Source of the DNA: a virus
Lineage: Duplodnaviria; Caudoviricetes
IMG/VR virus record: IMGVR_UViG_3300033150_000902
Location: 1-60,459 of that record
Reading direction: 5' to 3' (one strand)
DNA length: 60,459 nt
The notes beneath the pieces were generated by a model. That model worked only from the letters and a program-made list of their open reading frames with translations. It did no database searches and was not told where the DNA came from. The stretch's first letter is position 1, and each line of letters opens with the position of its first letter. Below, piece after piece: positions 6,288 through 23,929 of this stretch. A program made the translations under genes and the position numbers.

Positions 6288-6967
6288 GCCTTCCTCCATA
6301 ACTCCGCTACAGGTCCCTCTGTTATAGTGTGTAATCGAGGGGTGCCTGACCACGCCAAAACTCTTGCCTTCTTTGGAATACGGGAACCCTTCCCGGTTCT
6401 TTTCTTACCCACTATGTAGTCATCGGGCAGATAGTCTTGTAAACGTGGTACGTCTAAGCCTACGACGGATGCCACAAAGCCTTGATCACCATGTCTCCAT
6501 CTCTCCCGTTTTGCTTTCATGTGTTCGTCTGGTTTCTGACAAAACGTATGATAGATTTTAGCACAAGAAGGAAAATTACCTGCCATTACTCCTGTCGCCA
6601 GATTCAATTCACGCCTATGTTTAAACGCATAGTGCTGATTGAACCCCCGCAAGGTAATGAAAGGGAATTCAAAAGCCAAACGAGCCAACTCATCTATGTT
6701 ACCCAAAATGATGGTATCAAGATCGAAATATAAGCAAGCCTGAAAGGGTAAATCCGGTCTGAATAATTCAATCTTGCTCCACCATCCCGGCCACTTGTGC
6801 TTTAAAGGTATCGTTTCGCAGAAGTTAACAGAAGAAGGATTATCTGTCAGGCATATAAACTCATGATCCAAAGACAGGTTAGCACTTACTCCCTCATAGA
6901 GCTTTCTGACATACTCCTCTGTATAAACTCTACCTGTTTTATAGACACAAACCACATTAAGCTTCAT
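6284..6967 (-). CDS. Glycosyltransferase (GT8-like, phage type)
   Basis: FICLTD, GWWSKIELF, YFDLDTII, GDQGF. Confidence 0.75.
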   Translation of the reverse strand: MKLNVVCVYKTGRVYTEEYVRKLYEGVSANLSLDHEFICLTDNPSSVNFCETIPLKHKWPGWWSKIELFRPDLPFQACLYFDLDTIILGNIDELARLAFEFPFITLRGFNQHYAFKHRRELNLATGVMAGNFPSCAKIYHTFCQKPDEHMKAKRERWRHGDQGFVASVVGLDVPRLQDYLPDDYIVGKKRTGKGSRIPKKARVLAWSGTPRLHTITEGPVAELWRKA

Positions 6968-7616
6968 TAGCCAAATACTCCTCCAAGGGCATGATCGGAA
7001 AGCAAGATAAAGCCGAACCTGGCGTGCAATTAATTATCTCCAATCCCAACCTATCTGCATCACGAGCAACTGTCTTGAAATGCTTTAGATACAGGTCATA
7101 GGGATTCTTATCTTTCGCCGGATGATCCTTGTGCCAATTTGGTTCCCCATCAACCCGCCTCATATCATACCCTAAAAGCACCGCTCGTTTCGCCCCGAGA
7201 TGATAGGCAAGATTGATTGCGCTTGCTCCGCTGTTCCGATTCCATCCCACCTTATCCGGCTCTTTGCATATACCAGATAGCTTGCCTTTGGCATAATAGA
7301 ATAGCCCTTGAACCTTATCCATTCCATCAGCACACGAGGCAACGAGTCCATGAAACCGCCGCAGATGATCTATATGCCATTCAAGCCATCGGCCATCCCC
7401 GAACCACACGATGTTAACCCAGTCACGAGGCACATACCTACAACGTCTGGGATCATGGGAACCTCCCCCTCGTGTAGGAACAGGGTCTCCGTACGCATTA
7501 TTAATTGCAATAATCCTCCTACCTTTTATTGAGTTAAGGTCTACTTGCTTTAGACTTGGTCCTCCTCCGAGTAGGAACACGGTTTCCTGTTCCCACAGAT
7601 TTGGCGGTAGGATCAT
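6957..7616 (-). CDS. MAF/DUF115 (MptE-like) Rossmann-fold protein, possible sugar transferase
   Basis: LLGGGPSL, IAINNA, NSGASAINLAYHLGAKRAVLLGYD, IINCT. Confidence 0.65.
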   Translation of the reverse strand: MILPPNLWEQETVFLLGGGPSLKQVDLNSIKGRRIIAINNAYGDPVPTRGGGSHDPRRCRYVPRDWVNIVWFGDGRWLEWHIDHLRRFHGLVASCADGMDKVQGLFYYAKGKLSGICKEPDKVGWNRNSGASAINLAYHLGAKRAVLLGYDMRRVDGEPNWHKDHPAKDKNPYDLYLKHFKTVARDADRLGLEIINCTPGSALSCFPIMPLEEYLANEA

Positions 7617-8048: not shown

Positions 8049-9035
8049 CTATGCGCTGTAAACAGCTATCCCGCACCTGCCATCCTGGTCAGCCTGCAAC
8101 TGCGGAACCTTAATAGCCATAACCTTGAAATTAACCTTCATACCGCCCTCGGTCTCCCACTGAACGGTAGTGACATCAAGGCCATTGACTATTCGAACCG
8201 TATCAGACGCCAACTGCACAAGAACGACTTTGCCTGCGGTCAAGAAGTCAGCAACCTTGACAATCTCGATTCCCGAAACTTCCTGAATCCTTTGGCGGAT
8301 GGACTTATCGCTGTTCGCTTTGAAGTCATCATCCAAAGCCGTCTCATAGGCTGTCGGAACGTACAGCGCATAAGGCCCGTATCGCCTGTCGCTAATAAGA
8401 GCCTGCTTCATGGTCAATACGTCATCAAGGATTTCTGAACCGTCCACTGCCGAAGCAGACCAGGCACCCGTCAAACTCCCGGTGTTCCTACTGGTAAAAT
8501 CCTCGTAACCATAAAGGGATCCACCACCAAAGGTATAAGTAGACGCTCCCTGAAAGAGAATCTCCTCAACCTTTTCGGCAACTTTCCGAGCCGCCGCCTC
8601 AGCCATTGCCGTATCCAACGGCATGTTCCCGTTGCGAGAGGCCTCAATCTCCCTGATGGAAAAGGAAAAATCAGCATGGACTATCGGCAAGGGCAGATAA
8701 TTGATATCGTATTTCTGCCGATCGCGCTGCGCACGGGTCACACCATCCATGCTAAGCGAGGCATCCTCAATCTCACTGGCGTTCTGGTAAGCAAACACCG
8801 TCTTGCCGAGACCGTTTGGAATGTTGTAGGTTAGTCCACGAGCTTCAAGATCAGCAACACCCACCAGCCTTTGCTGATAAGCTTTCAGCACGGCCTTGTC
8901 AATTTCTTTCCACTCGTCATACAACAGAAGGTCGTTGGTTCTGAGAGCGGAAACGTCCATACCATTGGCCAACAGTCTGGCCGCCGCAGCCCCCGAACCA
9001 GTGCCTTTATAGATAACGTCAACATTAGCCTTCAT
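8049..9035 (-). CDS. Major capsid protein (HK97 fold, linocin/encapsulin-like)
   Basis: 328 aa; EWKEIDKAV, LPLPIVHADF, AARKVAEKVEEILFQG, YGPYALYV; strong RBS; position after scaffold and decoration genes. Confidence 0.85.
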   Translation of the reverse strand: MKANVDVIYKGTGSGAAAARLLANGMDVSALRTNDLLLYDEWKEIDKAVLKAYQQRLVGVADLEARGLTYNIPNGLGKTVFAYQNASEIEDASLSMDGVTRAQRDRQKYDINYLPLPIVHADFSFSIREIEASRNGNMPLDTAMAEAAARKVAEKVEEILFQGASTYTFGGGSLYGYEDFTSRNTGSLTGAWSASAVDGSEILDDVLTMKQALISDRRYGPYALYVPTAYETALDDDFKANSDKSIRQRIQEVSGIEIVKVADFLTAGKVVLVQLASDTVRIVNGLDVTTVQWETEGGMKVNFKVMAIKVPQLQADQDGRCGIAVYSA

Positions 9036-9053
9036 TTATTTTTACCTCCTTTC

Positions 9054-9518
9054 CTATCGAATTTCCACTTCAATTCTAGAAGCACCCACGGTGGAAGTAG
9101 CTGTATTCACCGTTTCCAAAGCCCTGCCGATCACGGCCTGCACATAACTCGTACCTGTCCAATTTGAAGACTCAGTAGGAGCAGTATACTTCTTGACGTA
9201 GCCGTCACCGTTGGAGCAAACCAAATCCCCCGCAGTGATGTTCTGACCGTCTGCCACATAAAGCAGAATCTCATCACCTGAACGGGGAGCCACAAACTGA
9301 ACCATATCTCCCGTAGCGTAGGAATCGTCTATGTCCTCTCCTTGCAGACTATTCTCAATAGCCACCAGAATAGGGGCAACGTCACCGCCGGAAGTGGAAT
9401 GAGCCTGCACCAATCCAGCACTAGTGCGTTCCAACACAAACCCGGGATAAATAGTCCCCGAACCTTTCGCTTCTTTCTGAAGCGGGTCACCTTTTAGAAC
9501 AATAGTCTTATGAGCCAT
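9054..9518 (-). CDS. Capsid decoration/cement protein
   Basis: 154 aa beta-rich protein between scaffold and MCP; IYPG, GDLVCSNGDG, IGRALE. Confidence 0.65.
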   Translation of the reverse strand: MAHKTIVLKGDPLQKEAKGSGTIYPGFVLERTSAGLVQAHSTSGGDVAPILVAIENSLQGEDIDDSYATGDMVQFVAPRSGDEILLYVADGQNITAGDLVCSNGDGYVKKYTAPTESSNWTGTSYVQAVIGRALETVNTATSTVGASRIEVEIR

Positions 9519-9541
9519 TTATTCTTACCTCCTTTCCTTTC

Positions 9542-11643
9542 TTAGTCCAACCCACTGAAATCGGGCTGTCCGTCCGCCGTCCACTTGGGCTTTGGCGGAG
9601 CAGGGGTCATTTCGTTTTCTTCCTCAGTAGCCTTCATGCGTTCCTCGCCAGCATTGAGTTCAAAATTGCCTTCAGGCTGCGCCAAAACAGCAAGGGCTTT
9701 CAACTCATCCATGCCTTTAGCCCGCAGTTGCTCCTCCGTGAACTGATTTCGTTCGTTAGCCATGATAGCCTTGACCAAACGATCTTTCTGTTCCCGATGG
9801 AGTTTTAGGAATCTGCTTTTCCTCTTGCTGTTCCTGCTTGTCCGTTTCATCTGAAGTATCCTCGGAGTTTGCCTTCACCTCGGCGGCATCATCATTGGCT
9901 TTATCTTCATTCACTTTCGCCTCCGCTTGTTCCGCCTTGGCTTTCACAAGAGATTCAATCTTGTCGAACTGTTCATCAGGCAATTCCTCAAGAAACTTCT
10001 GATCGTTCTCGCAGAAACAACCATTCTCCGCGGAAAGAATAGCCTCTATCCTTTCCTTTCTGTTCTCATCCGCCATCTCTTTTACCTCCTTTCCATTATC
10101 GTCTTTGTTTTCAGAGCCTTCTTCAGAGTCCTCGGAATCCAAGGACTGATCCTGTTTTGAAAGCTCCACATATTCTGATTTAGGAACCACCTCCTTCGGC
10201 TCACCAACGATTTCAACCTTACCGTCCACAATTCGATAATCCCGTTTGAAAAACCTTTCGGCTTCACCCGGCACAATCTCCTTATAGATAAAGTAGTCAT
10301 CAAATACCTCTTCAACATAATTGAAGATTCCTTCAGTTTGCCGAGGTGGTTGGTCCAAACCATCAACATAATTTTGCAGTTGTCCACGCAAATCATCATG
10401 GGAAAGCTCCTCTTCCCCAATCTGAATGCCAAGAGTCTTGCACATCATATGTACAAGCCGCTTGGCAAACCCCAATTGCTGTTGGGCACTGAGCTCGGTA
10501 CCAAACTCCTTGTCCAACAAACTCCTTGCCTTGTCTTGTGCAGATTCTTTAGCGGTATCAGGAATATCCGCTTGCGCCCCCCTGCCACTAATCACCGCTC
10601 GTAAGGCTCCTTCGTTCAATTTGTCTGTTGAAGGATTAACCACCGGGAAAAACACAAGCTCCGCAAAAGTATCTGCGCCAGCGTCACCAAGGAGGCTCTT
10701 AGACGCTATCCACTGTTTCATAGCAGACGGCATCTGTCCCACGCCTGTAATGCCTTCTTCAGGGCGTTCCGCGTCGGTGTTCTTGAAGTAACCATCAATA
10801 AACGCTTCCAAAGTCTTGTCCACGTCAGCCCAGCTAACAGTCTCGGTCCCTGAATAAGACGGATTTCTGGCCGTTGCTCTGATGTTGTTTATCACTTCAT
10901 CTTTACCTCCTTTCTTTATATCTTTATTCGCCCGAATCCCACAACCGTCTTCCCACGAGCAAGCTCCTATTGCCCCGGGGAGCAACGCCAAATGATCTGG
11001 GCGATAGTTCCTTACAATAGAATGATATTCTTCCTCATTCCAAACCCCTTCCACAAGCTCCTCATCACAGTACAACCCTGTTGAAACATCCATTTGGAAT
11101 TGCCGACACTAAAGAGGGCTCAATGGCATTCGCCTTTTCAACATCAATCCAAATCTCGCCTTTGAGTTTGCCGGAATCAAATGACACATTCCACAATCTG
11201 CCCACTACTTGAGTACTTACGATCTCAGGATCGTTACAAGAGATAGGAGTGCCTTCCTGTACTGGATGGTATACAGGGACAGGTATCCCATTCCAAGCCT
11301 CAGGGAATTTTTGTAACTCTTCCGCCGGATAATACACATCATTATGTACACCTTCCACCAGAAGCACTGTAGGAACTACTATGTACTTTCGCCCTTCCCA
11401 TACACGCTCTTGCGGAATGTAGTCCGCCTGATTCATTCGATAACCAGCGGACTTCAAGATGTTAGCTCTGTTGGCAACAGTCCCGTTGGCTTGTCGAATC
11501 GCGCTGGCTTCGCATTCAGACTGAGAGCCCCCGTCAGCCAAGCACCTCTCCAAAACATTGTTTGCCACCTCAACCCATTGCCGCTTTTGGGCATCGGTCA
11601 AACCTTGCTTAAATCGATCTACATCCTCTACTGTCCAAGGCAT
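9542..11643 (-). CDS. Prohead protease/scaffold (ChaB-like N-terminus + DUF2213-like), broken into three ORFs by two +1 frameshifts
   Basis: ORFs 11065..11673, 9756..11093 and 9542..9850 read as consecutive parts of one protein: EGVHN..YYPAEEL...WNGIPV..HP / DVSTG...RPDHLALLP...GACS..DGCG / scaffold tail. Junctions at about 11093 and 9805. Likely start 11643 after GGAGGAG. Confidence 0.7.
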
Positions 11644-11659
11644 TTCTTCATCTCCTCCA

Positions 11660-11797
11660 TCAAACCTCGGCATCGCCTTCAGGATCAGGCGATTCGTCTT
11701 TTGTCAACTTGACCGGTAAAGGTCTCCCTTCCCTATCCACAAAGACGATGGACTCTAACCATTCGTTAAATTCCTTTTCCGATTGTTCGTCTATCAT
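11660..11797 (-). CDS. 45-aa acidic protein coupled to the MuF-topoisomerase gene
   Basis: Hand translation MIDEQSEKEFNEWLESIVFVDREGRPLPVKLTKDESPDPEGDAEV; ATGA overlap with the upstream stop; fills the intergenic gap. Confidence 0.55.
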   Translation of the reverse strand: MIDEQSEKEFNEWLESIVFVDREGRPLPVKLTKDESPDPEGDAEV

Positions 11798-13755
11798 GGA
11801 ATACCTCCTATATAGTCCCATACCATAGGATCAATATAACTGTTTCTGGCCATTGCAGGTGTGTTATGCAAAAACTCACTAACCTTCCTGGATACCTCGC
11901 TTACGATCTTTTTCCTTTCCGTCACAGTCAGTTCTTTCCCCGCGTATTTTTTAAGTTCGTCTCTGGCTATTCTGGTACCGTGATACGTCCTGAAATCCTT
12001 TACCGTATAATTCTTTCCGTCCGCCAATTTTTTAAGGTAACGATTCAGCTTAGTGGAGGGAACGTCAGCAAATAATTTTTCACCTTCCCTTGTCATCATT
12101 TTCCGTTCTTGTAACCAAGGAGCAAGCACATCATCTTCAAGAACGTACTTGGCGTGTTTTCCCTCTTTGGCAATAAATTCCAAAGTAATTTTATTCCCCC
12201 GTACTGTAACGTGTTCATTCAACAGCGTAGTAAGACCGTAAGCCTTTTTTCTTGCCTTGAAATCTTTATCCGTTCCAATTCTGATCGCCGTTTTCTCTTC
12301 CAGTCTCATAAGGTATGCTTCCGGGTGTCCCTGGGCAATACCATCCTCTATTTTCCTTGATATAGCGGGCATGTCACGACTGAACGACTTCACCCGGTTA
12401 AACTTTTTCTGCGCTTGCTCCTTGACAAACTCCGCCGAATATCTGTACTGCCACCGACCGGCAATATCAAGTCCAATGGCCTGTATCTTTTGCGTCGGGT
12501 CTTTTGCGACTACAACACTTCTCCATCCGGGAGGAATTCTCATACTGTCAAGTCTTTTCAACATGGCTTCATCTTCGATCAACTCCCCTTGAAGATACCA
12601 TTTGCCTTCTTCTCGCACGATGTCCCTGCAAGCCTGCGGCCTTTGCAAGACAAAAGGAACCGAGTTAGCCATTAACGTTACAATTCTAGGAGTGCAGGCT
12701 TCCATCCTGCCAATCACGTTCATAGGCTTTTCACGCGCTCCAATTACTCCGGCTTTCTCCCGTTCCAAGGGGGCTCGTCTTGCCTCTCGTACCTCCAATG
12801 GCAGGGCAATACATCGGCACAACGGATGGAAAGGGATCATATTCTCAATTTCTTCAAGCTTGAATACCCTACCTTGTAATGAAGCACAATCACTACATAC
12901 TCTATGATCCCCGGCAGTTGTCCACTCCGCTCTAACTCTTACTCCTTCCACCTCCCAATGTCTGTACTCATTAATAGTGGCGACATGATGTGATCTTATA
13001 ATCTCTGTTCTGGCCAATAACTCCGCCCGTCTCCGCGCCGGGATAAATCTGCCCAACGTATCAGTAATACCAAGATCACCAACAGGACCTGTAATTGTTT
13101 TGGTTAACAATCGCGCCAATCTTCGCGGATTTTCACCATCGGCCATTCCTTGTGCAAGCACCCGCGCCACCTGCTGTTCCATAGTGGTTGTTATGCCTTT
13201 CAACTCGGAAAAAGCACGGGTAGCAACCAGCCCTACACGATCCGCATGAATAGGCAGATTGAATGCAATCCGCAAAGCGTCCGTATCTCCTGGAGCAAGA
13301 GAGGGGACATCGTATCCTGCTTTTACCATTTCATTTCTGGCGCGCAAGACTCCTTTTTGGTATGCTGAATGAATATAAGTATCCGTCCAAGCCTCTCTTA
13401 CCCCCGGCAGCGTACCAGGTAATCTAATGACCTGTGCACCTCTTGCCCCGCCAGATAGTATGAACTCTTTATCCATGCTTTCAAGCCAATCCATAAACGC
13501 GTCCACTTTTTGAGCGGACGTAGCAAAAGCGAACTGCCTTGCTTGTACCCTTTCCATCGCCTGTCGCTTTGTTATCAATGCAACTGGACTCAGTCCGAAT
13601 ACGTCCTTGTCAACTATGGCGTGGCGTATCAAACTTGTGATAATATTAAACCTACGCCTCATCTCAACCGCGAATCTATCCCTTAATGTCTTGGTTCGGG
13701 TAGGGTCCACCTCTTGATTGAAGTGTAGGCGTCTATGTAAGTTATAAGCCAACAT
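11794..13755 (-). CDS. Minor head protein (MuF/SPP1 gp7 family) fused to type IB DNA topoisomerase
   Basis: N-half: RAELLARTE, WTTAGDHRVCSDC, IPFHPLCRC (MuF). C-half: IPPGW, GLD.AGRWQYRY, IRIG, KEGK, KDFRTYHGT, HNTPAMARNSYIDP (TopIB catalytic residues). Confidence 0.85.
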   Translation of the reverse strand: MLAYNLHRRLHFNQEVDPTRTKTLRDRFAVEMRRRFNIITSLIRHAIVDKDVFGLSPVALITKRQAMERVQARQFAFATSAQKVDAFMDWLESMDKEFILSGGARGAQVIRLPGTLPGVREAWTDTYIHSAYQKGVLRARNEMVKAGYDVPSLAPGDTDALRIAFNLPIHADRVGLVATRAFSELKGITTTMEQQVARVLAQGMADGENPRRLARLLTKTITGPVGDLGITDTLGRFIPARRRAELLARTEIIRSHHVATINEYRHWEVEGVRVRAEWTTAGDHRVCSDCASLQGRVFKLEEIENMIPFHPLCRCIALPLEVREARRAPLEREKAGVIGAREKPMNVIGRMEACTPRIVTLMANSVPFVLQRPQACRDIVREEGKWYLQGELIEDEAMLKRLDSMRIPPGWRSVVVAKDPTQKIQAIGLDIAGRWQYRYSAEFVKEQAQKKFNRVKSFSRDMPAISRKIEDGIAQGHPEAYLMRLEEKTAIRIGTDKDFKARKKAYGLTTLLNEHVTVRGNKITLEFIAKEGKHAKYVLEDDVLAPWLQERKMMTREGEKLFADVPSTKLNRYLKKLADGKNYTVKDFRTYHGTRIARDELKKYAGKELTVTERKKIVSEVSRKVSEFLHNTPAMARNSYIDPMVWDYIGGIP

Positions 13756-14102: not shown

Positions 14103-14348
14103 CTACTTAGACTCAATCGTTCTAGCTGTAGTCAGACTTGCTATTGTCCTTGCCACTGTTGTGCTTGCTATTGTCCTTAATGTCGTTAAGCTCTCAATGG
14201 TTGTATCAATAATATCCAGTGCCACAGCAACGGCCATTGTCCCAAGCAAGCCTGCGGTAACGGCAAAGCCCGCTCGCTCCGCCGTCGTAGTAGACGAGGG
14301 ATCAGGATAAGTCCCTCTACTTGCTATTGCCAAAAAATCCAAAGCCAT
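14103..14348 (-). CDS. Hypothetical virion protein with T(L/V/A)RTI(A/E)S repeats
   Basis: Coupled to the upstream ORF; 27-bp coding repeats at the C-terminus. Confidence 0.45.
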   Translation of the reverse strand: MALDFLAIASRGTYPDPSSTTTAERAGFAVTAGLLGTMAVAVALDIIDTTIESLTTLRTIASTTVARTIASLTTARTIESK

Positions 14349-17300
14349 TACTCAAGTTTCTTCCTCGTAGTAGTGCCACCAGACGATGTATACGCCGCTG
14401 ATACACTGGCGTATGGAGTAGTATCATCATCCTCATAAATCACCGTGTTTCCCGTGTTTTCATCAATGGTTTGCTTATTGACTACAACTTTCTTGATACG
14501 ATTGATATAATCATTGATACTATCTCCAGTAGGTGAACCAGGAATCGCCGTATCCAAAGCACTATCCACCTCGGCATTAACATCGGCTTTCGCTTGTGTT
14601 CCAAGTTCATTGACTGTACCCACTGTAACCCCGCTTTGATCAGCAGCCAGGTTGAAATCAGACTTGTCTGTTAAAGCTCTTGTAGCTACTGTCCAAACAT
14701 CAGCAGCCGAATGAGTTGACGTTCCATCAATTTGATCACTTAATGTTTCAAGAGTGTCTCCATCTGCTCCAGTCCGTGCTATCTGAGTTGAACCAGTGTC
14801 CGCAGACTTGATCGGAAAAGCAGTGGACTCATCAAACTTAGCCGCAGTGATAGCGTCGTCTGCCAAGTTCATCTCGCTACCAACTGCCGCAGGACTGGCA
14901 GGCAGATTATCTGTTTTAGTCTTGATTGCGTCCACGTTTGAATCTACCGTATCCAGCTTTCCATCATGCGTGCTTTAGTTCTGCGCTGGTAGCAAAGCCT
15001 GTTGCAGTCACCCAATTTCCTTGGTTCGTCTGGAGTTCGTTTGTATCTTCTAAAATCGCATTGATATCCGCCCCATTATCATTGGCTGTCTGAGCAGTGC
15101 CTGATATATGGGTAACATTAACATCCGCGTAAGCATTAAGTATGTAATACTCATCCCCTGCCGCCGGAGTAAATCCAAAAGCACGATCAACCGTGATTTC
15201 TTTTGTAGAACCTGTATAGTCTATAATGCGGCGTGTTTCATAATGACCATCTGTCTTATCTTCCAAGGTAATGATCATGCCGTTGTAAGCGTTATCTACA
15301 GAAGAACCTGAATCTATAATAAACTTAGTGGCATCCGTCGCCGAGACCACATCGCCTTGTACAAGAAACACACGAGATAGATTGTAACCAAGGGTGCCAT
15401 CATCGTGACTGTCATTCGTACTTGACCTTGCCCATACAGCCTTTTGAATTGTATCCGCTGTAAGCCCTGCCGCCTCTTGGGCAACGCTCGCTACATTGAC
15501 ATAATCACAATACCAGACATCCGTACCGGTTTCCGATGTCGAGGTAAACCTGATTTTAACTTCACCGTCCGAAATCTTAACATTATCAATGCCTAAAGCG
15601 TATTCTTCCGTTGTATCCGTTCCCGAATTTCCAAAGTCGTTTGTGGAATTGGATATCTGATCATAGGAGGAAGTATTGTAATTATAAGCCCATACCTGTA
15701 CAGTCCGCTGGGCTCCTGCATCAAAGTGACCTCTGACCACAACTACGGAAGGAATGCGGCCTGTACCGATGCCAAAGGTCAAATTACAATCAAGACCGAA
15801 CCCGCCAACTGCCGCTCCTGGGCTTGTCTCGTAGTAATTAACTCCATCAGCGGTTGCCGTATCGGTATAATCACCATCAACCAGAACCGTATTTCCTTCC
15901 TCGGAATTCGCCGTTGCCGAATGTCCGAGAGGACTTGCGTCCACTAAAGCATCCCGAATTGCTTGTAGACTATCTGTAGTGTTGTCAAAGTTATCCCAGT
16001 CTGCTGTAGCAGATTTGGATACCAACTTGGCAATGATCGAATCATCAGTAATGTCCGTCCCTGTAACTGAAGCACTGATAAGATGGTCAAGTCCTATATC
16101 ACTTAGGGCTGTATCTACTTCAGCATTAACATCCGACTTGGCTTGCGTGCCAAGAGCGTTAGTAGTATCAGTTAAGACAACACCCTGTATTTTATGAGCG
16201 GACGGATCGTATCCCGTATCCACCAAGTCTTTCAAATCAGTAACAGATTGGACATCGTTTTGAATTGTTCCGAGCGTCGAATCCGCAGCTTGTATCTCAT
16301 AATCAGTGGACGAGTTTGGATTAGTAACCCAATTAGGTGAAACCGTAGCTTCTTTAGTTGAACCATTATATGCTGTAATGATTCTGGCTTGTCCTGCGCC
16401 TGTTCCTCCTACCAAGGCGATTCGAGCTCCCTTGTAAATATCATTTGTGCTTGATTCACCCGCCGCCAAAGTAATGCTATTATTCCCTCCGTCTTGAGCA
16501 GTGCCACTTGCAAGAGCGGTAAGTCCCGTACCGCTACCTGTAGTCCAAGCCGCGTCACCGCGATCTCTTATCGCTTCCAAGGAATCCGTAGTATTGTCAA
16601 AATCATCCCAATCCGCCGTGCCTGACTTAGACACCAACTTGGCTATAATGGAATTATCGACAACATCCGTTCCGGTCACCGAGGCTCCTACAAGGTGATC
16701 GAGTCCAATGTCACTTAGAGCGGTGTCCACCTCAGAATTGACATCAGCAGTAGATATGTCATTTAAGGCATCCAAGGTTGTCTTTGTTCCGCTTATACTA
16801 TAACCTGTCTTATCGTTATTGGTCCCAACTATTACCTGATCGGAACTGTTATCAAAATCAGAAATAGTGCCAGCCGGAAGTTTATCATCAATCGCTTTAA
16901 TTCTTTCATTGATACTATTCGCTGTAGGCGATCCTGGGATTTCTGTATTTAAAGCATTATCCACTTCAGCATTTACGTCTGCTTTGGCTTGTGTTCCTAA
17001 AGCATTAACCGTTCCTATTGTCACGCCACTTTGATCTGAGGCAAGATTGAAGTTGCTCTTATCTGTTAAAGCCCGCGTTCCTACAGCCCATACATCCGCC
17101 GCACTGTGACTGGAGCGTGAACTGACAGCTACATCCAAATTAGTAACATCTGCCTTGAAATCATTAACTCCAGAGACCGCTGAGTCATTAACATCCCTGA
17201 TATCTGCCAATACTAACGGGGTTCCATCTGAATTGAAATTGAGGTTATCAGTCTTGGCTTTAATAGCGTCTACATTCGAGTCCACCGTATCGAGCTTGCC

Positions 17301-17825
17301 ATCATGAGTACTCAAAGCCGACGCCGTTGCCGCATTATCCGTCCCACGCATATCCGTATTGGTTGTACAAGTATCGGTCAGGACTACACCTTGAACTTTA
17401 TGAGTGGATGGATCATAACCTGTATCAGCAAAGTCTTTCAGGTCAGTTGCACTTTGAGTGTCCCCACCAACCTGGGTAACATCCACCTGCAACTTATCGG
17501 AGCCATACTTAGAATCCCACACATTAGCAGGCAACACCGCAAACTCTAAACGTACTGCTAACGCACCGGCTACATGTACAAAGATTACTCCAGGGCCTAC
17601 TGTATTGGTATCGGTAGCATCCAGAACGATGTAATAGATACCATTGGACATATGAGTAGCCCCGCCGGAATTTTTATTGACAAGCGATGTTGCTCCCCAC
17701 TTCCAGATTTTGATATCTGTATTGTTAATAGTGAGGGAACCTTCCTCATCATCTCCGTTCGTTGAGTCAAGAAAGTATCCAAGTGGTACTTCTTGATTTG
17801 CTGTTGACTCTCTAAGTTCTATCAT
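14348..17825 (-). CDS. Large repeat-rich virion (fibre-like) protein, interrupted by a +1 frameshift at about 14975
   Basis: 953-aa and 195-aa ORFs join if one A of CTAAAG is removed, restoring the internal repeat LSTHDGKLDTVDSNVDAIK. Asp/Thr/Ser/Gly-rich with modular repeats. Confidence 0.7.
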
Positions 17826-17826
17826 C

Positions 17827-18627
17827 CTACATCATCCTTTGCTCTTTGTAGTGATGTACAAATACTGGAATAGGCACTCCTTCTTCCAAGTAAAAATGCC
17901 TGGCCGAACTTGGCTGGTCGAACATGACGTAAGGGTTAGCATGGAGTAATTTAATCTCGTTTTCAGTTAAAGCCCTGGCATAAATATATACAAACTCAAT
18001 TTGACCATCAAAAAATTGGGGGCCTGGATAGTATGCGGCAATTCTCAGAGCTTCATCAAATGGTCCTGCTGATCCAGTAGCCGAAGACGTCCCTACTGAT
18101 ACCCCATCCCTATAAACCTCATGACTATTTGATGCGCGGGAAACAAAAACAAAATCATGCCACTCATAAGACAGATCACTAACATTCTCGATTATTATAT
18201 TGCCTCCTAAATTACGCCAAAACACACGAGTCCCGCCATTACTACTTACATCGTCATTAGGATATAACAATAAATCATCTGTCCCTGCCCATGCCAATGC
18301 TGGTCTGTCTCTGGTGCCACCATGCTCGTTGAATCTAAATACTGCTGAAAAGTTATATGTAGTAGGCAAAGCTAATAATTCTGGCGATGCCGAGATTGCA
18401 ATATAGTCCGATCCTGAGTTATCAAAATTCAACATAAAACCATGCGGCCCTGCTTGCCAATCAGTTGGCTCCATGTTCGTCATCGTTCCGTGATTTGGAC
18501 CTGCATAGTCCCATACTGTTTCCCCTGCACCCTCATTAAATAGCCAAGCCGCTACTAATCCCCTGGCTAACGGATGGGACTTATCGATCTGAGTTCCACG
18601 AGGAGGTTTTTGTCGGGGAACAATCAT
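17827..18627 (-). CDS. LamG/concanavalin A-like lectin domain protein
   Basis: GLVAAWLFNEGAG, WHDFVF, YRDG, FDGQIEFVYIYARALT. Confidence 0.8.
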   Translation of the reverse strand: MIVPRQKPPRGTQIDKSHPLARGLVAAWLFNEGAGETVWDYAGPNHGTMTNMEPTDWQAGPHGFMLNFDNSGSDYIAISASPELLALPTTYNFSAVFRFNEHGGTRDRPALAWAGTDDLLLYPNDDVSSNGGTRVFWRNLGGNIIIENVSDLSYEWHDFVFVSRASNSHEVYRDGVSVGTSSATGSAGPFDEALRIAAYYPGPQFFDGQIEFVYIYARALTENEIKLLHANPYVMFDQPSSARHFYLEEGVPIPVFVHHYKEQRMM

Positions 18628-19846: not shown

Positions 19847-20116
19847 TCATGACGGAGTCCATTTCTTTTGATAATCGAAATTGACGGTATCTATAGTATT
19901 TTCAGGGGTAGGTACAGGATCTTTATACTCACTGCTGTTATTTATTGAATATATCGAGTTTTCACTTGCAGTGGTATATCCTTGGCCATAACCATTACAT
20001 ATGCCTACGCTATACCCTTCCTCATAGCCCTGCTTCTTACCTTGTCTATAAGCAAGGCCAAAACCCACGATGAAAACAACAACGCCCGCAATAAAAACAG
20101 CTAATTCAGAAAACAT
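19847..20116 (-). CDS. Membrane protein with GY..GY repeats
   Basis: N-terminal TM helix; GKKQGYEEGY; coupled to the portal stop. Confidence 0.45.
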   Translation of the reverse strand: MFSELAVFIAGVVVFIVGFGLAYRQGKKQGYEEGYSVGICNGYGQGYTTASENSIYSINNSSEYKDPVPTPENTIDTVNFDYQKKWTPS

Positions 20117-21519
20117 TATTCTATCTCCTCTTCTTCCCCAAAGGACTCAAGCAAAGACTCAATATAAGCCAACTGTTCTGACGAGAAATTCAACCAATCC
20201 CTCAAGAATACCTCCGGCGGCACTATCTGGTCCGCGCCAGGGGACATCACATACTTGGACAAGGCTTCCGCTTTTATTCTACTAACCTCGGCTTCTTCCT
20301 TCTCACTGCGGGGCATTAATTCAGGCCATTTTATAACATATCCGTTCACAGGTTCCGGCAGAATTCCATAATCAATGCACCGATCAATCAATGCCCGTAA
20401 GATAACCGGTTCACAAAAGTTCTTTCGTCTCGCATCCACCCTCTCTAACCACGCCCGTTCATCCTGACTACTTGCTAACTCACCTCTCTCCGAACCTAGC
20501 AAAATGCGTTTGGGAATTTGACAACCCGCACTGATCATGCTTATCAATACGTCAAAATGATCTTTAGGACTAGCAACTTGTATTCCCAAACTTTTCATCT
20601 CGACGCCTTCTAATCGCACGTGCCTTTGTAAGTCATGCAAGAATGCTTGAATCTCATCTTCAAGATCGTCTAACGATTGAGCGTCAAAGGAGGCGTCGTC
20701 TTTGGCCTCCAAACTGTAGCCTGGGAACGCGCCCCGCCAAAACATTTCAGCAGAGCCCCCTACTACGTATTCAAGTGCTTGAAGATGGTTATAAACATTC
20801 TCCAAACGAGGCGTTCCCCATACGTCATTGTCAAGCAACCCTTCCGCTATATGTATCACCCTGGTATGATGCACCTTAAAATCTTTGCTTTGAGTAATGC
20901 CTTTTATGCTGTATCTTGGACTCAATTTGTATATCTTAGGGAGACCATAACGAGGACTCCCTGGGTCTTCCTCCCATTCCGCCACTGCCGAGTCATCAAC
21001 CATATAAGGCCGCAAATACAAGAGCTTTCTTTCCGTCCCCTGCTCCACAGGCAATATCATCTCATCAGAATTCTTGACATCATCCAAGCCCATATACAGG
21101 ATGCCAAACCAACCTATTCCTGATAACACGTCCGCCCGGCTCAGATAATGGTATATGCCATGAGACTTAACCAACTCTTTCCAAGCATTATCAAAGAGGG
21201 CTGCCTGCTTCGGGTCTTTGTCCACTTCCTCTACAGTCGGATGCCTACGCCAACTCGCCTCAGGTTTAGCCTCTATTACATGTTTGGCAATCTCATTCCT
21301 CTTATACATAGACAAGTAATGATTAAACGTCAGATTAAGGACATAGCCTAAAGACTTGTAAATGTCTCGTTCTGCCTTGCCCCCCGCGCTTGGGTAGTAG
21401 CTCTTCCCGGCCAGGCCTCCCAGGCTCATACGGTCTACTAAAATCTTTGCCGTATTCAAGAGTGTAAGAGTATTCCTCTTACGCCGTTCAAGGTTTACCG
21501 GATTATTTGTTCGCTTCAT
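20116..21519 (-). CDS. Portal protein (DUF1073-like)
   Basis: 467 aa directly after TerL; DPGSPRYGLP, VHHTRVIH, IPKRILLGSERGELAS. Confidence 0.85.
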   Translation of the reverse strand: MKRTNNPVNLERRKRNTLTLLNTAKILVDRMSLGGLAGKSYYPSAGGKAERDIYKSLGYVLNLTFNHYLSMYKRNEIAKHVIEAKPEASWRRHPTVEEVDKDPKQAALFDNAWKELVKSHGIYHYLSRADVLSGIGWFGILYMGLDDVKNSDEMILPVEQGTERKLLYLRPYMVDDSAVAEWEEDPGSPRYGLPKIYKLSPRYSIKGITQSKDFKVHHTRVIHIAEGLLDNDVWGTPRLENVYNHLQALEYVVGGSAEMFWRGAFPGYSLEAKDDASFDAQSLDDLEDEIQAFLHDLQRHVRLEGVEMKSLGIQVASPKDHFDVLISMISAGCQIPKRILLGSERGELASSQDERAWLERVDARRKNFCEPVILRALIDRCIDYGILPEPVNGYVIKWPELMPRSEKEEAEVSRIKAEALSKYVMSPGADQIVPPEVFLRDWLNFSSEQLAYIESLLESFGEEEEIE

Positions 21520-21789
21520 CTTCCCTCACCTTTGGTTTTATAGACTGTAGTGAATATATCTCTACTTGTCCGAATCGTGCCGGCCACAACCATGTCCCTG
21601 AAAGGATTCCTCAATTGTTTCCTTGAAAGCCTGCTCGGTCTATAACGTATATTATAACCGTGTATCTCCCGTGCAGGGCGTCGGCGCATCCGTTCTTCCA
21701 TTGTATACCCCTCTTCATCCCGTCCACATGAAGGGCAAGTGCTGCGTTCATTGTCCACATCAAGATCACAGAAATAGCATGTCCACATT

Positions 21790-23352
21790 TTACCGTCTCC
21801 CCCATACTCCGGCTCGTCTTTTCTTCCCGGGAAAGGCCAACTTAGCAAACGCTCCAGACGCCGCGTCCACCTGATCCTTGTAAGTGGAGAAGGGAAAGTT
21901 TCGATGCTCTTCTATAAATTCATTGTTCCAATCGGCCCGCAACAGGAGAACATTGCCAACATTGACCTGAACGCTATAAGGATCGGCCCGGTATACCTTG
22001 TCCCCTGTAGGCGAGTCCGCCTTGGCCACAAACCCTGCAAGATTTCTTGCGGTAGCTTCTGCGCTTTCCTTGCCTCCACTCCCCGGTTCTTGCTCAAAAT
22101 ACACATGCACGTTTGTTCCATCTGCCTGAGCCGTTTGCTTGATAATCGCCTCCCGCTCATCAGTTGACCATTGACCCCTTTTAACGTCCTGCACCACATA
22201 AGCAGGAGTGTTGTCCGTCCTATCCCGCATAATAACTTTGCTCATCTTTACCCCGACTGTATAGGCTCCACCGCCCGCCGTTGCTCCCTTATCCCAGTAG
22301 CGCACCGTTCTTTCAATAGCCCCGATAGGTAAAGCGTCAACAATTTGAAAATGATCAACCTTGAACATGCCCCCGCCCGGAGGTGTGGGACGCTGGCCTA
22401 TCTGTCCGGCGAATCCGTATTGTCCCAGGTCCTGTTCCAACTCCTTCAGAATGAACCAGGGCATTCTTTTAGCGTCAAGCAAATCCTTTTCATAACGGGA
22501 AGCCAGTTCCGCCGGTTTTAGTTCTTCCTTGTAGTTTCTTATTTCGCCGGGCAAGCATATATGAAATGTATTCTCCTTAGCTTTTGCCAACAAATGTCCT
22601 GACGGATCGTTTTGATGAAGTCTTTGCATAATAAGAACAGTGGCACTGGTTTTCTTGTCTACTTTCCTGGTGCTCAATGTTTGATCAAGCCATCTGTTCG
22701 CCTTCCTCAGTTCAACATCACTAACCGCCCTGTTTGGATCAATCGGATCGTCTACTATCAGGATATGACCATGAAAACCAGTCAGGGTACCACCGACCGA
22801 AGTGCTGTACCGATTGCCACCTAACCGATTAACCCCGTTCGGCATCCGTTTTAAAACCCTAAAATTGCTTTTTGTGTCTTTATCTTGTTTGATGGTAAGC
22901 TCAGGGAAACATTGACTAAATTCAGTTGATCTGATCAAATCCCTGCTATACTCCGCGCTTTCAAGCGACAGCTGACCTGAATATGACGCCGTGATAAACC
23001 TCATCCAATGCCATCTTGTCCAGCACCACACCGGGAACATAATACTGCATGTTATTGTTTTGGTAGTGCCAGGAGGAACATTGATAATCAGATCATGTTC
23101 TTTAGGCAGTCCTTTTGCCACTCTTTCCGCCAGTTGTTCTAATTGTTCCGTTAGATATTCTATATGCCAATTCGGAATGAAGGTATCGTTGGATATGACA
23201 GGCCAGAATTCTTGAATGAAATGATACAATGATCTTCTACAACGCTCAGCCTTTATTTGATAGACATTCTCCAAGGCTTGGCGCATTCTTTCTCTTTTAG
23301 GAGCTTTGGTCCTTGCAAGGCCTAATGACGTTTGATTAAGTGCCACAGACAT
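21790..23352 (-). CDS. terL: Terminase large subunit
   Basis: Walker A VPPGTTKT, Walker B ILIVDDP, IMQRLH, nuclease motifs YWDK, EQEPGSGGK, DQVDA. Confidence 0.92.
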   Translation of the reverse strand: MSVALNQTSLGLARTKAPKRERMRQALENVYQIKAERCRRSLYHFIQEFWPVISNDTFIPNWHIEYLTEQLEQLAERVAKGLPKEHDLIINVPPGTTKTITCSIMFPVWCWTRWHWMRFITASYSGQLSLESAEYSRDLIRSTEFSQCFPELTIKQDKDTKSNFRVLKRMPNGVNRLGGNRYSTSVGGTLTGFHGHILIVDDPIDPNRAVSDVELRKANRWLDQTLSTRKVDKKTSATVLIMQRLHQNDPSGHLLAKAKENTFHICLPGEIRNYKEELKPAELASRYEKDLLDAKRMPWFILKELEQDLGQYGFAGQIGQRPTPPGGGMFKVDHFQIVDALPIGAIERTVRYWDKGATAGGGAYTVGVKMSKVIMRDRTDNTPAYVVQDVKRGQWSTDEREAIIKQTAQADGTNVHVYFEQEPGSGGKESAEATARNLAGFVAKADSPTGDKVYRADPYSVQVNVGNVLLLRADWNNEFIEEHRNFPFSTYKDQVDAASGAFAKLAFPGKKRRAGVWGRR

Positions 23353-23356
23353 GTTT

Positions 23357-23929
23357 TTACTTATCTTCTTCCTGTTTCTGCTGTAACGCTTTCAGGCCAA
23401 TCCTTTCCAACATTTTCAATTCCTCGTCGGTCAGGTCAGACAAATCAAGATCGTGTTGTATATTTTGATTCTGGGTTCTGATAGGGCCCCCGCCCTTGCC
23501 TGTTATTTCCGTGCGGGTGATTTCAAGCCAAGGTTGCGCATTGTTCTTGGTTCTGTTTTTCAACCAAATCCAGGCGGCCCCGGTATCAGGCGGGTAATGC
23601 TTGACAATAGGAGTTTTTACTATTTCGCCATTGACTACACGGATATCCACGTCTGGATGGGAATAACCACATGCCTTTCTGTACAGACTGACAGCCACAT
23701 TAGCATCGGCTTCTGTCTTGCCTTTTTTCAGAGCTTCCCTGAAAGACGGAAAACGATTTTTCCAATTCTCAATAGTCTGCGGAGCAACACCAAAAGCAGT
23801 TGCCAACTCCACGTCTGTAAGACCTAACAGGGTGAGCTTATAAGCCCGTTCCGCAATGTCTATAGTATATTTAGTTTTCCTTCCCGGTTTTTGTTTCTCG
23901 TCCATCCGTTCCCCTCTATATATACACAT
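23357..23929 (-). CDS. terS: Terminase small subunit
   Basis: GRKTKY, HTH (GLTDVELATAFGVAPQTIENWK), HYPPDTGAAWIWLKNR, EITGKGGGPI; directly upstream of TerL. Confidence 0.85.
   Translation of the reverse strand: MCIYRGERMDEKQKPGRKTKYTIDIAERAYKLTLLGLTDVELATAFGVAPQTIENWKNRFPSFREALKKGKTEADANVAVSLYRKACGYSHPDVDIRVVNGEIVKTPIVKHYPPDTGAAWIWLKNRTKNNAQPWLEITRTEITGKGGGPIRTQNQNIQHDLDLSDLTDEELKMLERIGLKALQQKQEEDK

What the first reader, a model, noticed from the sequence alone, without database searches (positions are those of the whole stretch)
11794..13755. MuF minor head protein fused to an apparently intact type IB topoisomerase
Seen: one 653-aa ORF joining MuF to a TopIB with candidate catalytic R (IRIG), K (KEGK), R (FRT), N (HNT) and Y (SYID). 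Established: MuF/gp7 proteins are packaged in heads and can carry C-terminal toxin or enzyme domains delivered with the DNA. Inference: a virion-delivered topoisomerase acting on the incoming genome, during packaging, or as a toxin. I do not recall this as a characterised fusion.
Basis: partly seen in the sequence, partly recalled or inferred. Interest (0 to 1): 0.75.

Follow-up and report, generated by a model that had tools for sequence, protein, structure and literature searches.

The report
Phage head protein carrying topoisomerase IB
An uncultured phage joins its portal-associated head protein (MuF) to an apparently active DNA-relaxing enzyme, followed by a tiny acidic partner gene predicted to plug that enzyme, which suggests the enzyme travels in the capsid as it does in poxviruses.

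Summary
ORF 11794..13755 (-) encodes 653 aa. It has a MuF head domain, a flexible basic linker and a complete bacterial-type topoisomerase IB, all above Pfam cut-offs. R492, K530, R589, N631 and Y640 align with the catalytic residues of D. radiodurans TopIB. They are invariant in 41 of 41 related modules.

It is not an artefact. An independent contig has the same junction, and 31 of 120 listed homologues carry both domains.

New here: a 45-aa acidic gene (11660..11797) starts at an ATGA overlap with the TopIB stop. It follows the close TopIB module in 8 of 8 loci and in none of 77 others. A complex model supports binding in the catalytic cleft (score 0.92, best control 0.00).

Near-identical MuF modules carry other cargos, and TopIB also ends portal fusions.

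Best reading: capsid-loaded TopIB with a producer-cell inhibitor. Packaging, delivery and activity are inferred. My searches found no paper describing it. This scan has noted the same cassette on other DNA.

The parts
11794..13755 (-). Whole MuF-TopIB gene, 653 aa, stop TGA at 11794-11796
   Evidence: ORF list and translation. Three Pfam domains above their cut-offs.
12784..13716 (-). MuF / head-morphogenesis module, residues 14-324 (Pfam core 194-316). It ends in the conserved HPLCRCIALP motif.
   Evidence: phrog_758 E 6.5e-35 over residues 14-324. PF04233 E 1.2e-13. Invariant R249-T250-E251, P311, C313 and C315 in alignment A1.
12634..12783 (-). Linker, residues 325-374: basic (pI 11.2), low-confidence in the fold, variable in length among relatives
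   Evidence: pLDDT below 50 for residues 323-348 and 357-374. pI. Gaps in this region in alignment A1.
12694..12729 (-). Conserved leader motif of the TopIB module, residues 343-354 (K-P-M-x-x-I-G-x-x-x-x-C). A second conserved stretch follows at 373-386 (P-x-x-C-x-D-[YI]-V-R-x-x-G-K-W).
   Evidence: P344 in 32 of 41, M345 in 35 of 41, C354 in 35 of 41, C376 in 36 of 41, W386 in 40 of 41. A profile of the motif hits 50 times just upstream of TopIB; every hit away from a TopIB module is weak, E 0.6 or worse.
11797..12633 (-). Type IB topoisomerase module, residues 375-653 (N-terminal domain plus catalytic domain)
   Evidence: PF21338 and PF01028. 2f4q E 4.7e-34. pLDDT about 78-94 from residue 380 on, apart from a dip to 66-68 at residues 491-510.
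11836..11838 (-). Codon of the catalytic tyrosine Y640 (TAT). The other pentad residues are R492, K530, R589 and N631.
   Evidence: Alignment to 2f4q and 2h7f. Invariant in 41 of 41 modules. Codon read.
11660..11797 (-). 45-aa acidic partner gene (pI 4.1). Its ATG at 11797-11795 overlaps the TopIB stop as ATGA.
   Evidence: Sequence at the junction. The 45-aa form is the one on record (P0121). Homologues directly downstream of TopIB in 8 of 8 loci and in 0 of 77 others. Invariant W13, S16, I17, F19, D34, D38, D42. Complex model score 0.92 against best control 0.00.
11803..11810 (-). Ribosome-binding site TAGGAGGT, 6 nt before the partner's ATG, inside the end of the TopIB gene
   Evidence: Read directly from the sequence.
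20116..23929 (-). Packaging genes of the same late block: small terminase 23357-23929, large terminase 21790-23352, portal 20116-21519
   Evidence: phrog_309 E 3.5e-45, phrog_38 E 1.9e-78, phrog_146 E 1.1e-67.
8049..11673 (-). Head genes directly downstream: a phrog_760 gene in three pieces (11065-11673, 9756-11093, 9542-9850), head decoration 9054-9518, major capsid protein 8049-9035
   Evidence: Comparison with the single ORFs of L005 and L004.

Best explanation
This is a two-gene cargo cassette mounted on a head protein. The MuF module places the protein in the procapsid at the portal, as SPP1 gp7 does. A flexible basic linker of about 50 residues tethers a catalytically competent bacterial-type TopIB inside the head. 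The 45-aa acidic protein is made from the same late mRNA by translational coupling. It occupies the DNA-binding and catalytic cleft of TopIB in the producing cell, so the enzyme cannot nick or relax replicating phage or host DNA before it is stowed. After packaging, or on ejection, the plug is displaced by DNA or left behind. The MuF-TopIB then enters the next host with the leading DNA end and relaxes supercoils without ATP. Its target would be the incoming genome (easing early transcription or circle formation), the host chromosome (shutting off supercoiling-dependent host transcription), or both. Shown by sequence and comparison: the fusion, the intact pentad, the cassette behaviour, the gene coupling. 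Supported only by a model: partner binding in the cleft. Inferred: packaging, release of the plug, delivery, and the target of the activity.
For: Both domains pass Pfam cut-offs. The pentad aligns to solved TopIBs and is invariant in 41 of 41 modules spanning 40-60% identity. TopIB is C-terminal, with at most 3 residues left, in 40 of 41. Of the 51 closest cluster representatives of the module, 26 carry Phage_Mu_F, 1 Phage_min_cap2 and 3 Phage_portal, so 29 of 51 sit on a head protein; 5 also carry ADP-ribosyltransferase-type domains. Of the top 52, 43 have TopIB at the C-terminal end behind more than 200 residues. The gene lies in the late block between portal and capsid genes. In relative L004 it directly follows the portal gene. 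Cargo swap: P0007 and P0008 are 83% and 86% identical over the MuF half, then differ. The partner follows the close TopIB module in 8 of 8 loci (7 distinct) whatever the N-terminal architecture, and is absent from the other 77 loci. In L005 (same phage lineage, other cargo) the downstream ORF is unrelated. ATGA overlap plus TAGGAGGT. Complex model: score 0.92, 0.92, 0.91; best of 3 controls 0.00; partner pLDDT 89; runs agree in at least 94% of contacts. The mark was reached by 58 of 80 solved complexes and 2 of 110 mismatched pairs, and these counts hold only roughly because my own alignments were used. The interface includes R492, K530, R589, N631 and residues 638-639. P. aeruginosa TopIB was toxic when expressed in E. 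coli (PMC2666729, passage seen). [quoted passage not shown] Vaccinia encapsidates its TopIB, which acts mainly in early transcription (PMC12188299, passages and reference titles seen).
Against: Nothing here shows that the protein is in virions, that it leaves with the DNA, or that it relaxes DNA. A small gene right after a variable C-terminal module is equally the hallmark of a toxin-immunity pair. The complex is a model, not a measurement. The MuF half folded poorly (pLDDT mostly below 50-65; whole model pTM 0.41), so the geometry of the tether is unknown. If the plug is packaged with the enzyme, the enzyme might stay silent after delivery. The record is only about 80% complete, and one head gene next to the cassette is split into three frames relative to its relatives, so this particular phage might be defective. 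In L084 a single in-frame TAG separates the leader from TopIB, and in L007 TopIB stands alone, so fusion is not obligatory.
Confidence: 0.5

Rival explanations
1. MuF polymorphic toxin with its immunity protein. TopIB is a toxin released with, or carried by, phage particles to harm competing bacteria or freshly infected cells. The acidic protein is the immunity factor that protects cells carrying the phage.
For: The architecture matches the published pattern: a MuF N-terminus, a variable C-terminal module, and a small ORF directly downstream (89.4% of 191 MuF-toxin genes; PMC5576092). Cargo swapping on near-identical MuF modules. The same MuF clade carries ADP-ribosyltransferase-type and metallopeptidase-like cargos. 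A bacterial TopIB was toxic in E. coli. The partner is modelled in the active site, as an immunity protein would be.
Against: The authors found MuF toxins only in temperate phages. No integrase or repressor family appeared among the ORFs I scanned (54, 19, of the 75 ORFs of at least 120 aa listed; shorter ORFs were not scanned). The phage has its own helicase, primase, polymerase, clamp and clamp loader. The record is only about 80% complete, so this is weak evidence. The partner is translationally coupled to a late structural gene. Promoter-like sites in the region are not above chance (10 found; 7.4 +/- 2.5 expected), so it would not be made in a lysogen. An enzyme that religates is an odd choice of toxin.
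Confidence: 0.17
2. An assembly-stage enzyme. Tethered at the portal, TopIB acts in the producing cell during DNA packaging, for instance by releasing twist generated by the packaging motor or by replication-linked concatemers. It has no role in the next host.
For: It is fused to proteins that sit at the DNA entry channel, MuF and portal. It lies in the late packaging block next to the terminase and portal genes.
Against: A co-translated plug of the DNA cleft is hard to reconcile with an enzyme that must work at the very time it is made. The C-terminal modules that replace TopIB on the same MuF clade include ADP-ribosyltransferase-type domains, which have no conceivable packaging role. Most tailed phages package without any topoisomerase at the portal (established knowledge, not tested here).
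Confidence: 0.13
3. The fusion has no targeting meaning. TopIB is an ordinary replication or transcription topoisomerase of the phage that happens to be fused to a late gene, and it is cut off or works in the cytoplasm.
For: Stand-alone phage TopIB genes exist outside head modules, for example in Bacteroides phage BS162P1 among small hypothetical genes, and in loci L067, L071 and L078.
Against: The close clade is attached to head proteins in 29 of 51 representatives, on at least three different carriers. TopIB is always last in the chain. It has its own leader motif and partner, which the distant stand-alone forms lack.
Confidence: 0.05

Closest known systems
Bacterial type IB topoisomerase (D. 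radiodurans TopIB, PDB 2f4q/3m4a; P. aeruginosa TopIB, PMC2666729)
   Same: Same two-domain enzyme with the bacterial Arg-Lys-Arg-Asn-Tyr pentad: E 4.7e-34 over residues 395-648, with both the bacterial N-terminal domain and the catalytic core.
   Different: Those are free-standing cellular enzymes of about 300-350 aa. This one is the C-terminal module of a phage head protein. It has an extra conserved leader (residues 343-386) and a dedicated acidic partner gene.
MuF- and portal-fused effectors: phage 'polyvalent proteins' (Iyer et al. 2017, PMC5512222) and MuF polymorphic toxins (Jamet et al. 2017, PMC5576092; Zhang et al. 2012, PMC3482391)
   Same: A MuF carrier, a swappable C-terminal enzymatic module, a small ORF downstream, and a position among packaging genes. 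Relatives combine TopIB with ADP-ribosyltransferase-type domains on one chain.
   Different: The word 'topoisomerase' occurs in none of the three main texts as a cargo; it appears only in a reference title in PMC5512222. Supplements were closed and might list it. The described cargos are nucleases, ARTs, peptidases, RelA/SpoT and the like, not a DNA-relaxing enzyme. No lysogeny gene was found here.
Poxvirus virion topoisomerase IB (vaccinia; Shaffer and Traktman 1987; Da Fonseca and Moss 2003, both as cited in PMC12188299)
   Same: A TopIB carried in the virus particle that serves the earliest steps of the next infection (passages seen). It belongs to the same enzyme family: variola 2h7f E 6e-8, vaccinia 1a41 E 1.6e-4.
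   Different: The poxvirus enzyme is a free protein in the core with His at the fourth pentad position, in a virus of animals. Here it is covalently tethered to a head protein of a tailed phage, has Asn at that position, and has a predicted protein plug.
SPP1 gp7, the studied MuF protein
   Same: [quoted passage not shown]
   Different: gp7 is a single-domain protein without an enzyme. By sequence, the window's MuF half is closest to MuF proteins of haloarchaeal viruses among cultured viruses (36.8% to Hardycor1).
   Same: The proposed role of the 45-aa acidic partner: a small protein that occupies or blocks the DNA site of a topoisomerase.
   Different: Those act on type IA or type II enzymes. 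No sequence relation was found: Pfam gave nothing and PHROGs only a weak E 0.0095, and the Atlas gave nothing. I know of no protein inhibitor of a type IB enzyme (recalled).

Membership tests
Type IB DNA topoisomerase (bacterial/poxvirus type) | Catalytic core domain (PF01028) and bacterial N-terminal domain (PF21338) above curated cut-offs | tested here: met
   89.9 bits against 23.7, and 43.3 bits against 27. 2f4q E 4.7e-34.
Type IB DNA topoisomerase (bacterial/poxvirus type) | Catalytic pentad Arg-Lys-Arg-(His/Asn)-Tyr in register with solved enzymes | tested here: met
   R492, K530, R589, N631 and Y640 align to identical residues of 2f4q. They are invariant in 41 of 41 relatives.
Type IB DNA topoisomerase (bacterial/poxvirus type) | ATP-independent relaxation of supercoiled DNA through a 3'-phosphotyrosyl intermediate | not testable with these tools
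   Needs a plasmid relaxation assay with a Tyr-to-Phe control.
MuF / SPP1 gp7 head protein (PF04233) | Phage_Mu_F domain above the curated cut-off | tested here: met
   52.2 bits against 29.6. phrog_758 E 6.5e-35 over residues 14-324.
MuF / SPP1 gp7 head protein (PF04233) | Encoded in the head-packaging block, typically right after the portal gene | tested here: met
   It lies between the portal (20116-21519) and the capsid genes. In the window, about 6.3 kb of fibre-like genes are inserted after the portal. In relative L004 it abuts the portal gene.
MuF / SPP1 gp7 head protein (PF04233) | Present in the virion, bound to the portal | not testable with these tools
   Needs virion proteomics. 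No cultured phage with the fused form was found in the phage collection: 0 of 21 matching records cover 80% of the query.
MuF polymorphic toxin (Jamet et al. 2017) | MuF N-terminus with a variable C-terminal module and a small ORF immediately downstream | tested here: met
   Cargo swap on MuF modules 83-86% identical. A 45-aa ORF overlaps the stop codon.
MuF polymorphic toxin (Jamet et al. 2017) | Encoded by a temperate phage or prophage | tested here: inconclusive
   No integrase or repressor family among the ORFs scanned. An IS110-like transposase and a ParB-like gene are present. The record is about 80% complete.
MuF polymorphic toxin (Jamet et al. 2017) | C-terminal module toxic to bacteria and neutralised by the downstream gene product | not testable with these tools
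   Only indirect evidence: P. aeruginosa TopIB was toxic in E. coli, and the complex model places the partner in the active site.
Phage-type polyvalent protein (Iyer et al. 2017) | Several effector domains (2 to 15) in one polypeptide, encoded beside virion-packaging genes | tested here: inconclusive
   The window's protein has one carrier and one effector. Relatives with MuF+ART+TopIB (P0013), portal+MuF+TopIB (P0043, L006) and ADPrib+DUF3626+TopIB (P0145) fit the definition.

The most novel reading that the evidence does not exclude
TopIB tethered at the portal does not merely relax DNA. It cleaves close to the last-packaged genome end, which lies in the portal channel, and stays covalently joined to it through Tyr640. 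The first DNA to enter the host would then be capped by protein, shielded from exonucleases such as RecBCD. The stored phosphotyrosyl bond could then be spent to join that end to the other genome end, circularising the genome without ligase or ATP, as vaccinia topoisomerase does in 'TOPO cloning'. The acidic partner would prevent this suicide reaction until the enzyme is in place. Nothing in my data excludes this. It would explain why the enzyme is fused to portal-proximal proteins, always by its N-terminus, and why it must be kept off DNA beforehand.
Probability: 0.07. Interest if true: 0.9.

Novelty: new variant of a known kind. Interest (0 to 1): 0.62.

Why it matters
Tailed phages are known to inject a few proteins with their DNA, and MuF is a known carrier for such cargo. 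A topoisomerase among them would be a new kind of payload: an enzyme that changes DNA topology at the first moment of infection. Until now that is known only from poxviruses. The module is common. It has 499 cluster representatives at E <= 1e-30. The closest of them are mostly mounted on MuF or portal proteins, so this would be a widespread strategy rather than an oddity. The dedicated 45-aa partner would be, as far as I recall, the first natural protein inhibitor of a type IB topoisomerase, and it is a compact tool candidate. The idea is directly testable with two small recombinant proteins.

Tried and rejected
- Read-level check of the junction: the look-up of sequencing runs listed no run. 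None was listed, which is not evidence that none exists.
- Fused form in cultured phages: 0 of 21 matching records cover 80% of the query. The best cultured TopIB hit, Bacteroides phage BS162P1, is a stand-alone 254-aa gene among small hypothetical genes.
- Named genomes: the first scan found nothing. The second found one locus, on a contig labelled as a Deltaproteobacteria MAG, which is too little to name a host. No tRNA genes. The nearest cultured phages are remote: large terminase at most about 35% identical, capsid protein at most 41% (Brevundimonas phages).
- Family for the partner: Pfam gave nothing, PHROGs only phrog_22931 at E 0.0095, and the Atlas gave no usable hit.
- A general 'cargo tag': a profile of the leader motif hit 50 times just upstream of TopIB, once elsewhere in a TopIB protein, and 12 times at E 0.7-22 in short window ORFs that I did not examine further. 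It never hit before the other cargo domains. I therefore reject a general cargo tag for this family. The test has low power because the motif is short.
- TAG recoding in L084, as an explanation of the in-frame TAG between leader and TopIB: only that gene would fuse under TAG=Q. Rejected as a general code change.
- An independent promoter for the partner: promoter-like sites are not above chance.
- Papers: searches on MuF + 'topoisomerase IB', 'type IB topoisomerase' + bacteriophage, TopIB + phage + 'head morphogenesis', and 'topoisomerase IB' + virion + phage gave no paper on a phage head-borne TopIB.
- Earlier findings of this scan, looked up by place and by sequence: nothing.
Full report
THE OBSERVATION. 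The window is a linear virus record of 60,459 bases, estimated about 80% complete. On its minus strand, 11794..13755 is one open frame of 653 codons. Pfam finds three domains, each above its curated cut-off:
- Phage_Mu_F at residues 194-316.
- Top1B_N_bact at residues 389-430.
- Topoisom_I at residues 442-637.

PHROGs extends the head-protein part to residues 14-324 (phrog_758, 'head morphogenesis', E 6.5e-35). The C-terminal part matches the solved D. radiodurans TopIB (2f4q/3m4a) at E 4.7e-34 over residues 395-648, and more weakly matches 6z01 and the variola and vaccinia enzymes.

All align with identical residues of 2f4q. By my count along the printed alignment these are R137, K174, R239, N280 and Y289. 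R492 and K530 also align with R130 and K167 of the variola enzyme. Asn at the fourth position is the bacterial variant of the pentad; the residue numbers agree with what I recall from the literature.

IS THE FUSION REAL? No sequencing run could be listed for the junction, so I have no read-level check. Independent assemblies serve instead:
- Viral contig L001 encodes the same protein at 636 of 664 aligned positions. Its linker is identical, and it has an in-frame 11-residue duplication inside TopIB.
- Among the 120 listed homologues, 31 (query included) carry both PF04233 and PF01028 by precomputed Pfam.
- My own phmmer split found the TopIB part in 41 of these 120. In 40 of the 41 it ends within 3 residues of the C-terminus. 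The exception is P0084, where it is N-terminal.
- The pentad is invariant in 41 of 41, at 40-60% overall identity. That argues for selection on catalysis.

CONTEXT. The late block on the minus strand runs, in order: small terminase, large terminase, portal; about 6.3 kb of fibre-like genes, one with a Laminin_G_3 domain; the fusion; a small gene; a phrog_760 gene; head decoration; major capsid protein. In relative L004 (46% identical fusion) the gene directly follows the portal gene. The rest of the window encodes a replisome, a sigma-factor-like protein and recombination genes. No integrase or repressor family appeared among the ORFs I scanned. The nearest cultured phages are remote. The host is unknown.

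THE PARTNER GENE. The 53-codon ORF listed at 11660..11821 really starts at its ninth codon. That ATG (11797-11795) overlaps the TopIB stop as ATGA, and TAGGAGGT lies 6 nt upstream. The 45-aa form is the one on record.

I called ORFs in all 84 fetched loci plus the window segment and searched them with a profile of this protein:
- It occurs in 8 of 8 loci that hold the close TopIB module: window, L001, L004, L006, L007, L008, L035 and L084. L006 and L008 are near-duplicates, so 7 are distinct.
- In every case it starts between 28 nt before and 1 nt after the TopIB stop.
- It occurs in none of the other 77 loci. Those include the many MuF loci with other cargos and 3 loci with distant stand-alone TopIBs (L067, L071, L078).
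- L070 and L077 were listed by tblastn as weak TopIB matches. My ORF caller gave no TopIB ORF for them, so they count among the 77.

The flanking genes of L006, L035 and L084 are unrelated to the window's, yet the pair is kept. In L005, a close relative of the window's phage whose MuF (78% identical) carries a different cargo, the downstream ORF is an unrelated 88-aa one. The partner therefore belongs to TopIB, not to the head module.

The partner is acidic: pI 4.1, with 14 acidic and 5 basic residues out of 45. It has invariant W13, S16, I17, F19, D34, D38 and D42 across 16 sequences. Ten further clusters of 43-47 aa exist in the large protein collection, none of them named. It matches no Pfam family and no Atlas cluster.

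DOES THE PARTNER BIND? A complex model of residues 340-653 (alignment A1) with the partner (alignment A2) supports binding; it does not show it.
- Scores were 0.92, 0.92 and 0.91, against a best control of 0.00 out of 3 controls.
- Partner pLDDT was 89, and the runs agree in at least 94% of contacts.
- The mark was reached by 58 of 80 solved complexes and by 2 of 110 mismatched pairs. These counts hold only roughly because I used my own alignments.
- The listed interface includes four pentad residues (R492, K530, R589, N631), residues 638-639 next to Y640, the N-domain strand 434-442 and the helix 449-460.

The peptide is therefore modelled inside the clamp where DNA lies. I know of no solved complex of this kind, so recall by the model is unlikely, but I cannot exclude it.

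CARGO BEHAVIOUR. P0007 and P0008 are 83% and 86% identical to the window's MuF half up to the motif HPLCRC(I/V)ALP. They then continue with an unrelated module that shows an HExxH motif; Pfam names only the MuF part. The same MuF clade also carries ADP-ribosyltransferase, PI3/PI4-kinase-like, ATLF-like and intein-containing forms.

Conversely, the TopIB module ends other carriers: portal+MuF (L006, P0043), portal (P0057), MuF+ART (P0013), and ADPrib_exo_Tox+DUF3626 (P0145).

The exhaustive search with residues 340-653 gave 6,590 cluster representatives at E <= 1e-3, 3,404 at E <= 1e-10 and 499 at E <= 1e-30.
- Of the best 52, 45 are at least 500 aa long, and 43 have TopIB at the C-terminal end behind more than 200 residues.
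- Of the 51 other than the query, 26 have Phage_Mu_F, 1 has Phage_min_cap2 and 3 have Phage_portal (one of these also has MuF), so 29 of 51 sit on a head protein. Four are stand-alone proteins of 315-349 aa.

In L007 the module is a separate gene. In L084 a single in-frame TAG separates the leader from TopIB, and that contig shows no general TAG recoding.

LINKER AND LEADER. The AlphaFold model (13-row alignment; mean pLDDT 64; pTM 0.41) is confident for TopIB: about 78-94 from residue 380 on, apart from a dip to 66-68 at residues 491-510. It is poor for much of MuF and below 50 for residues 323-348 and 357-374. The linker is basic, pI 11.2.

In front of TopIB lies a conserved leader: P344 in 32 of 41, M345 in 35 of 41, C354 in 35 of 41, then P373, C376, D378, R381 and W386. 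A profile of residues 341-358 hits 50 times just upstream of TopIB among 170 TopIB-bearing targets and never before other cargo domains. Its other hits are weak: one at E 0.6 in a TopIB protein, and 12 at E 0.7-22 in short window ORFs that I did not examine further. In this family I read it as part of the TopIB module, not as a general cargo tag. Its role is open: a protease site, a targeting peptide, or simply the first strand of the N-domain. The two conserved cysteines are unexplained.

WHAT IT MOST LIKELY DOES. [quoted passage not shown] It treats MuF as a carrier of effector or toxin domains, usually followed by a small putative immunity ORF (PMC5576092, passages; PMC5512222 and PMC3482391, passages). 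A bacterial TopIB was toxic when expressed in E. coli (PMC2666729, passage). Vaccinia virus encapsidates its TopIB, which acts chiefly in early transcription (PMC12188299, passages and reference titles).

From these facts and the data above, I think the most likely reading (about 0.5) is a capsid-loaded TopIB. The co-translated acidic plug keeps it off DNA in the producing cell. In the next host it is freed to relax the incoming genome, the host chromosome, or both.

The main rival (about 0.17) is a toxin-immunity pair in the sense of Jamet et al. The coupling of the partner to a late structural gene, the lack of promoter signal above chance and the absence of lysogeny genes in the ORFs scanned speak against it, though weakly, because the record is incomplete. 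A packaging-stage role (about 0.13) fits the position at the portal but fits badly with a co-made inhibitor. A meaningless fusion (about 0.05) fits badly with three different head carriers.

NOVELTY. My searches found no paper on a phage head-borne TopIB. They covered MuF + 'topoisomerase IB'; 'type IB topoisomerase' + bacteriophage; TopIB + phage + 'head morphogenesis'; and 'topoisomerase IB' + virion + phage. The three comparative papers on MuF cargos do not mention a topoisomerase in their main text. Their supplements were closed and may list it. The library holds open-access papers and preprints only.

This scan has noted the same cassette on other genomes before, including the acidic partner and portal fusions. 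Those are unchecked AI notes. One of them, on a portal-TopIB fusion, is marked 'part of it fell' without saying which part. I class the finding as a new variant of a known kind: a known carrier and logic, with a new payload and a new partner.

LIMITS. Activity, binding, packaging and delivery are untested. The host and lifestyle are unknown. The phrog_760 head gene next to the cassette is split over three frames in this record, whereas L005 and L004 have one ORF. One break is an 11-nt deletion just before the Met of the second piece. So either this phage makes the protein in pieces or the record is imperfect.

Noticed in passing
window 9542-11673 (-): The phrog_760 head gene (protease- or scaffold-like by position) is one ORF in relatives: L005 731 aa, L004 490 aa. 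In the window it is spread over three frames (ORFs 11065-11673, 9756-11093, 9542-9850). The first break is an 11-nt deletion relative to L005, right before the Met that starts the 445-aa piece. The second break, near 9800, was not resolved.
   Followed up: partly
window 42381-42700 and 43787-43960: Arrays of repeats with 36-nt spacing (two alternating 9-10-nt cores) flank an IS110-like transposase ORF at 42763-43731. The Transposase_20 match scores 20.7 bits, just under the 21.3 cut-off; phrog_4285 gives E 2.9e-27.
   Followed up: no
window 39942-41174 and 46429-47823 (+): A family A DNA polymerase appears split into two genes 5 kb apart: a UDG-like domain plus 3'-5' exonuclease in the first, the polymerase domain in the second. 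They match successive parts of phrog_17. An exonuclease, the transposase and small genes lie between them.
   Followed up: no
window 27411-27761: A likely replication origin: CTGTCCTCTCAG in three tandem copies, present twice, plus a 74-nt direct repeat (99% identical). It lies next to a DnaD/O-like initiator gene at 26470-27216.
   Followed up: no
window 37462-37535 and 47804-47877: A 74-nt element (80% identical copies) ending in TATAATATATGTAGA stands at the strand-switch region and before the clamp-loader gene. It is a candidate phage promoter, perhaps for the phage's own sigma-like protein at 29273-29764.
   Followed up: no
window 14103-19013 (-): A block of fibre-like genes sits between the portal and MuF. 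A 953-aa ORF (14964-17825) and a 195-aa ORF (14348-14935) share a 197-nt repeat and repeated peptide motifs. There is also a 266-aa Laminin_G_3 protein (17827-18627). L004 lacks the block, and there the fusion abuts the portal gene.
   Followed up: no
window 912-7616 (-): Next to the capsid genes lies a cluster of three glycosyltransferase-like genes, a radical-SAM protein and a cupin/cysteine-dioxygenase-like protein. This may be virion or host-surface glycan modification.
   Followed up: no
window 32902-34748 (-): A ParB-like protein (phrog_2159 E 7.9e-71) is paired with a PAPS-reductase/DUF3440 protein. It looks like a conserved phage gene pair for DNA modification or anti-defence.
   Followed up: no
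L084 5974-5976: A single in-frame TAG separates the leader motif (the end of a 460-aa ART-PolyVal-like ORF) from the 285-aa TopIB ORF. Under TAG=Q only this gene fuses, giving 747 aa, so there is no general recoding. Whether it is a split gene, an error or read-through is unknown.
   Followed up: partly
L001 7708-7740 (approx., residues 570-580 of its ORF): The closest relative's TopIB has an in-frame tandem duplication of 11 residues between the catalytic Lys and the second Arg.
   Followed up: no
window residues C354 and C376 of the fusion (12694-12696, 12628-12630): Two cysteines in the leader and N-domain start are conserved in 35 and 36 of 41 modules. They lie in a region the fold leaves at low confidence. 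No explanation.
   Followed up: no
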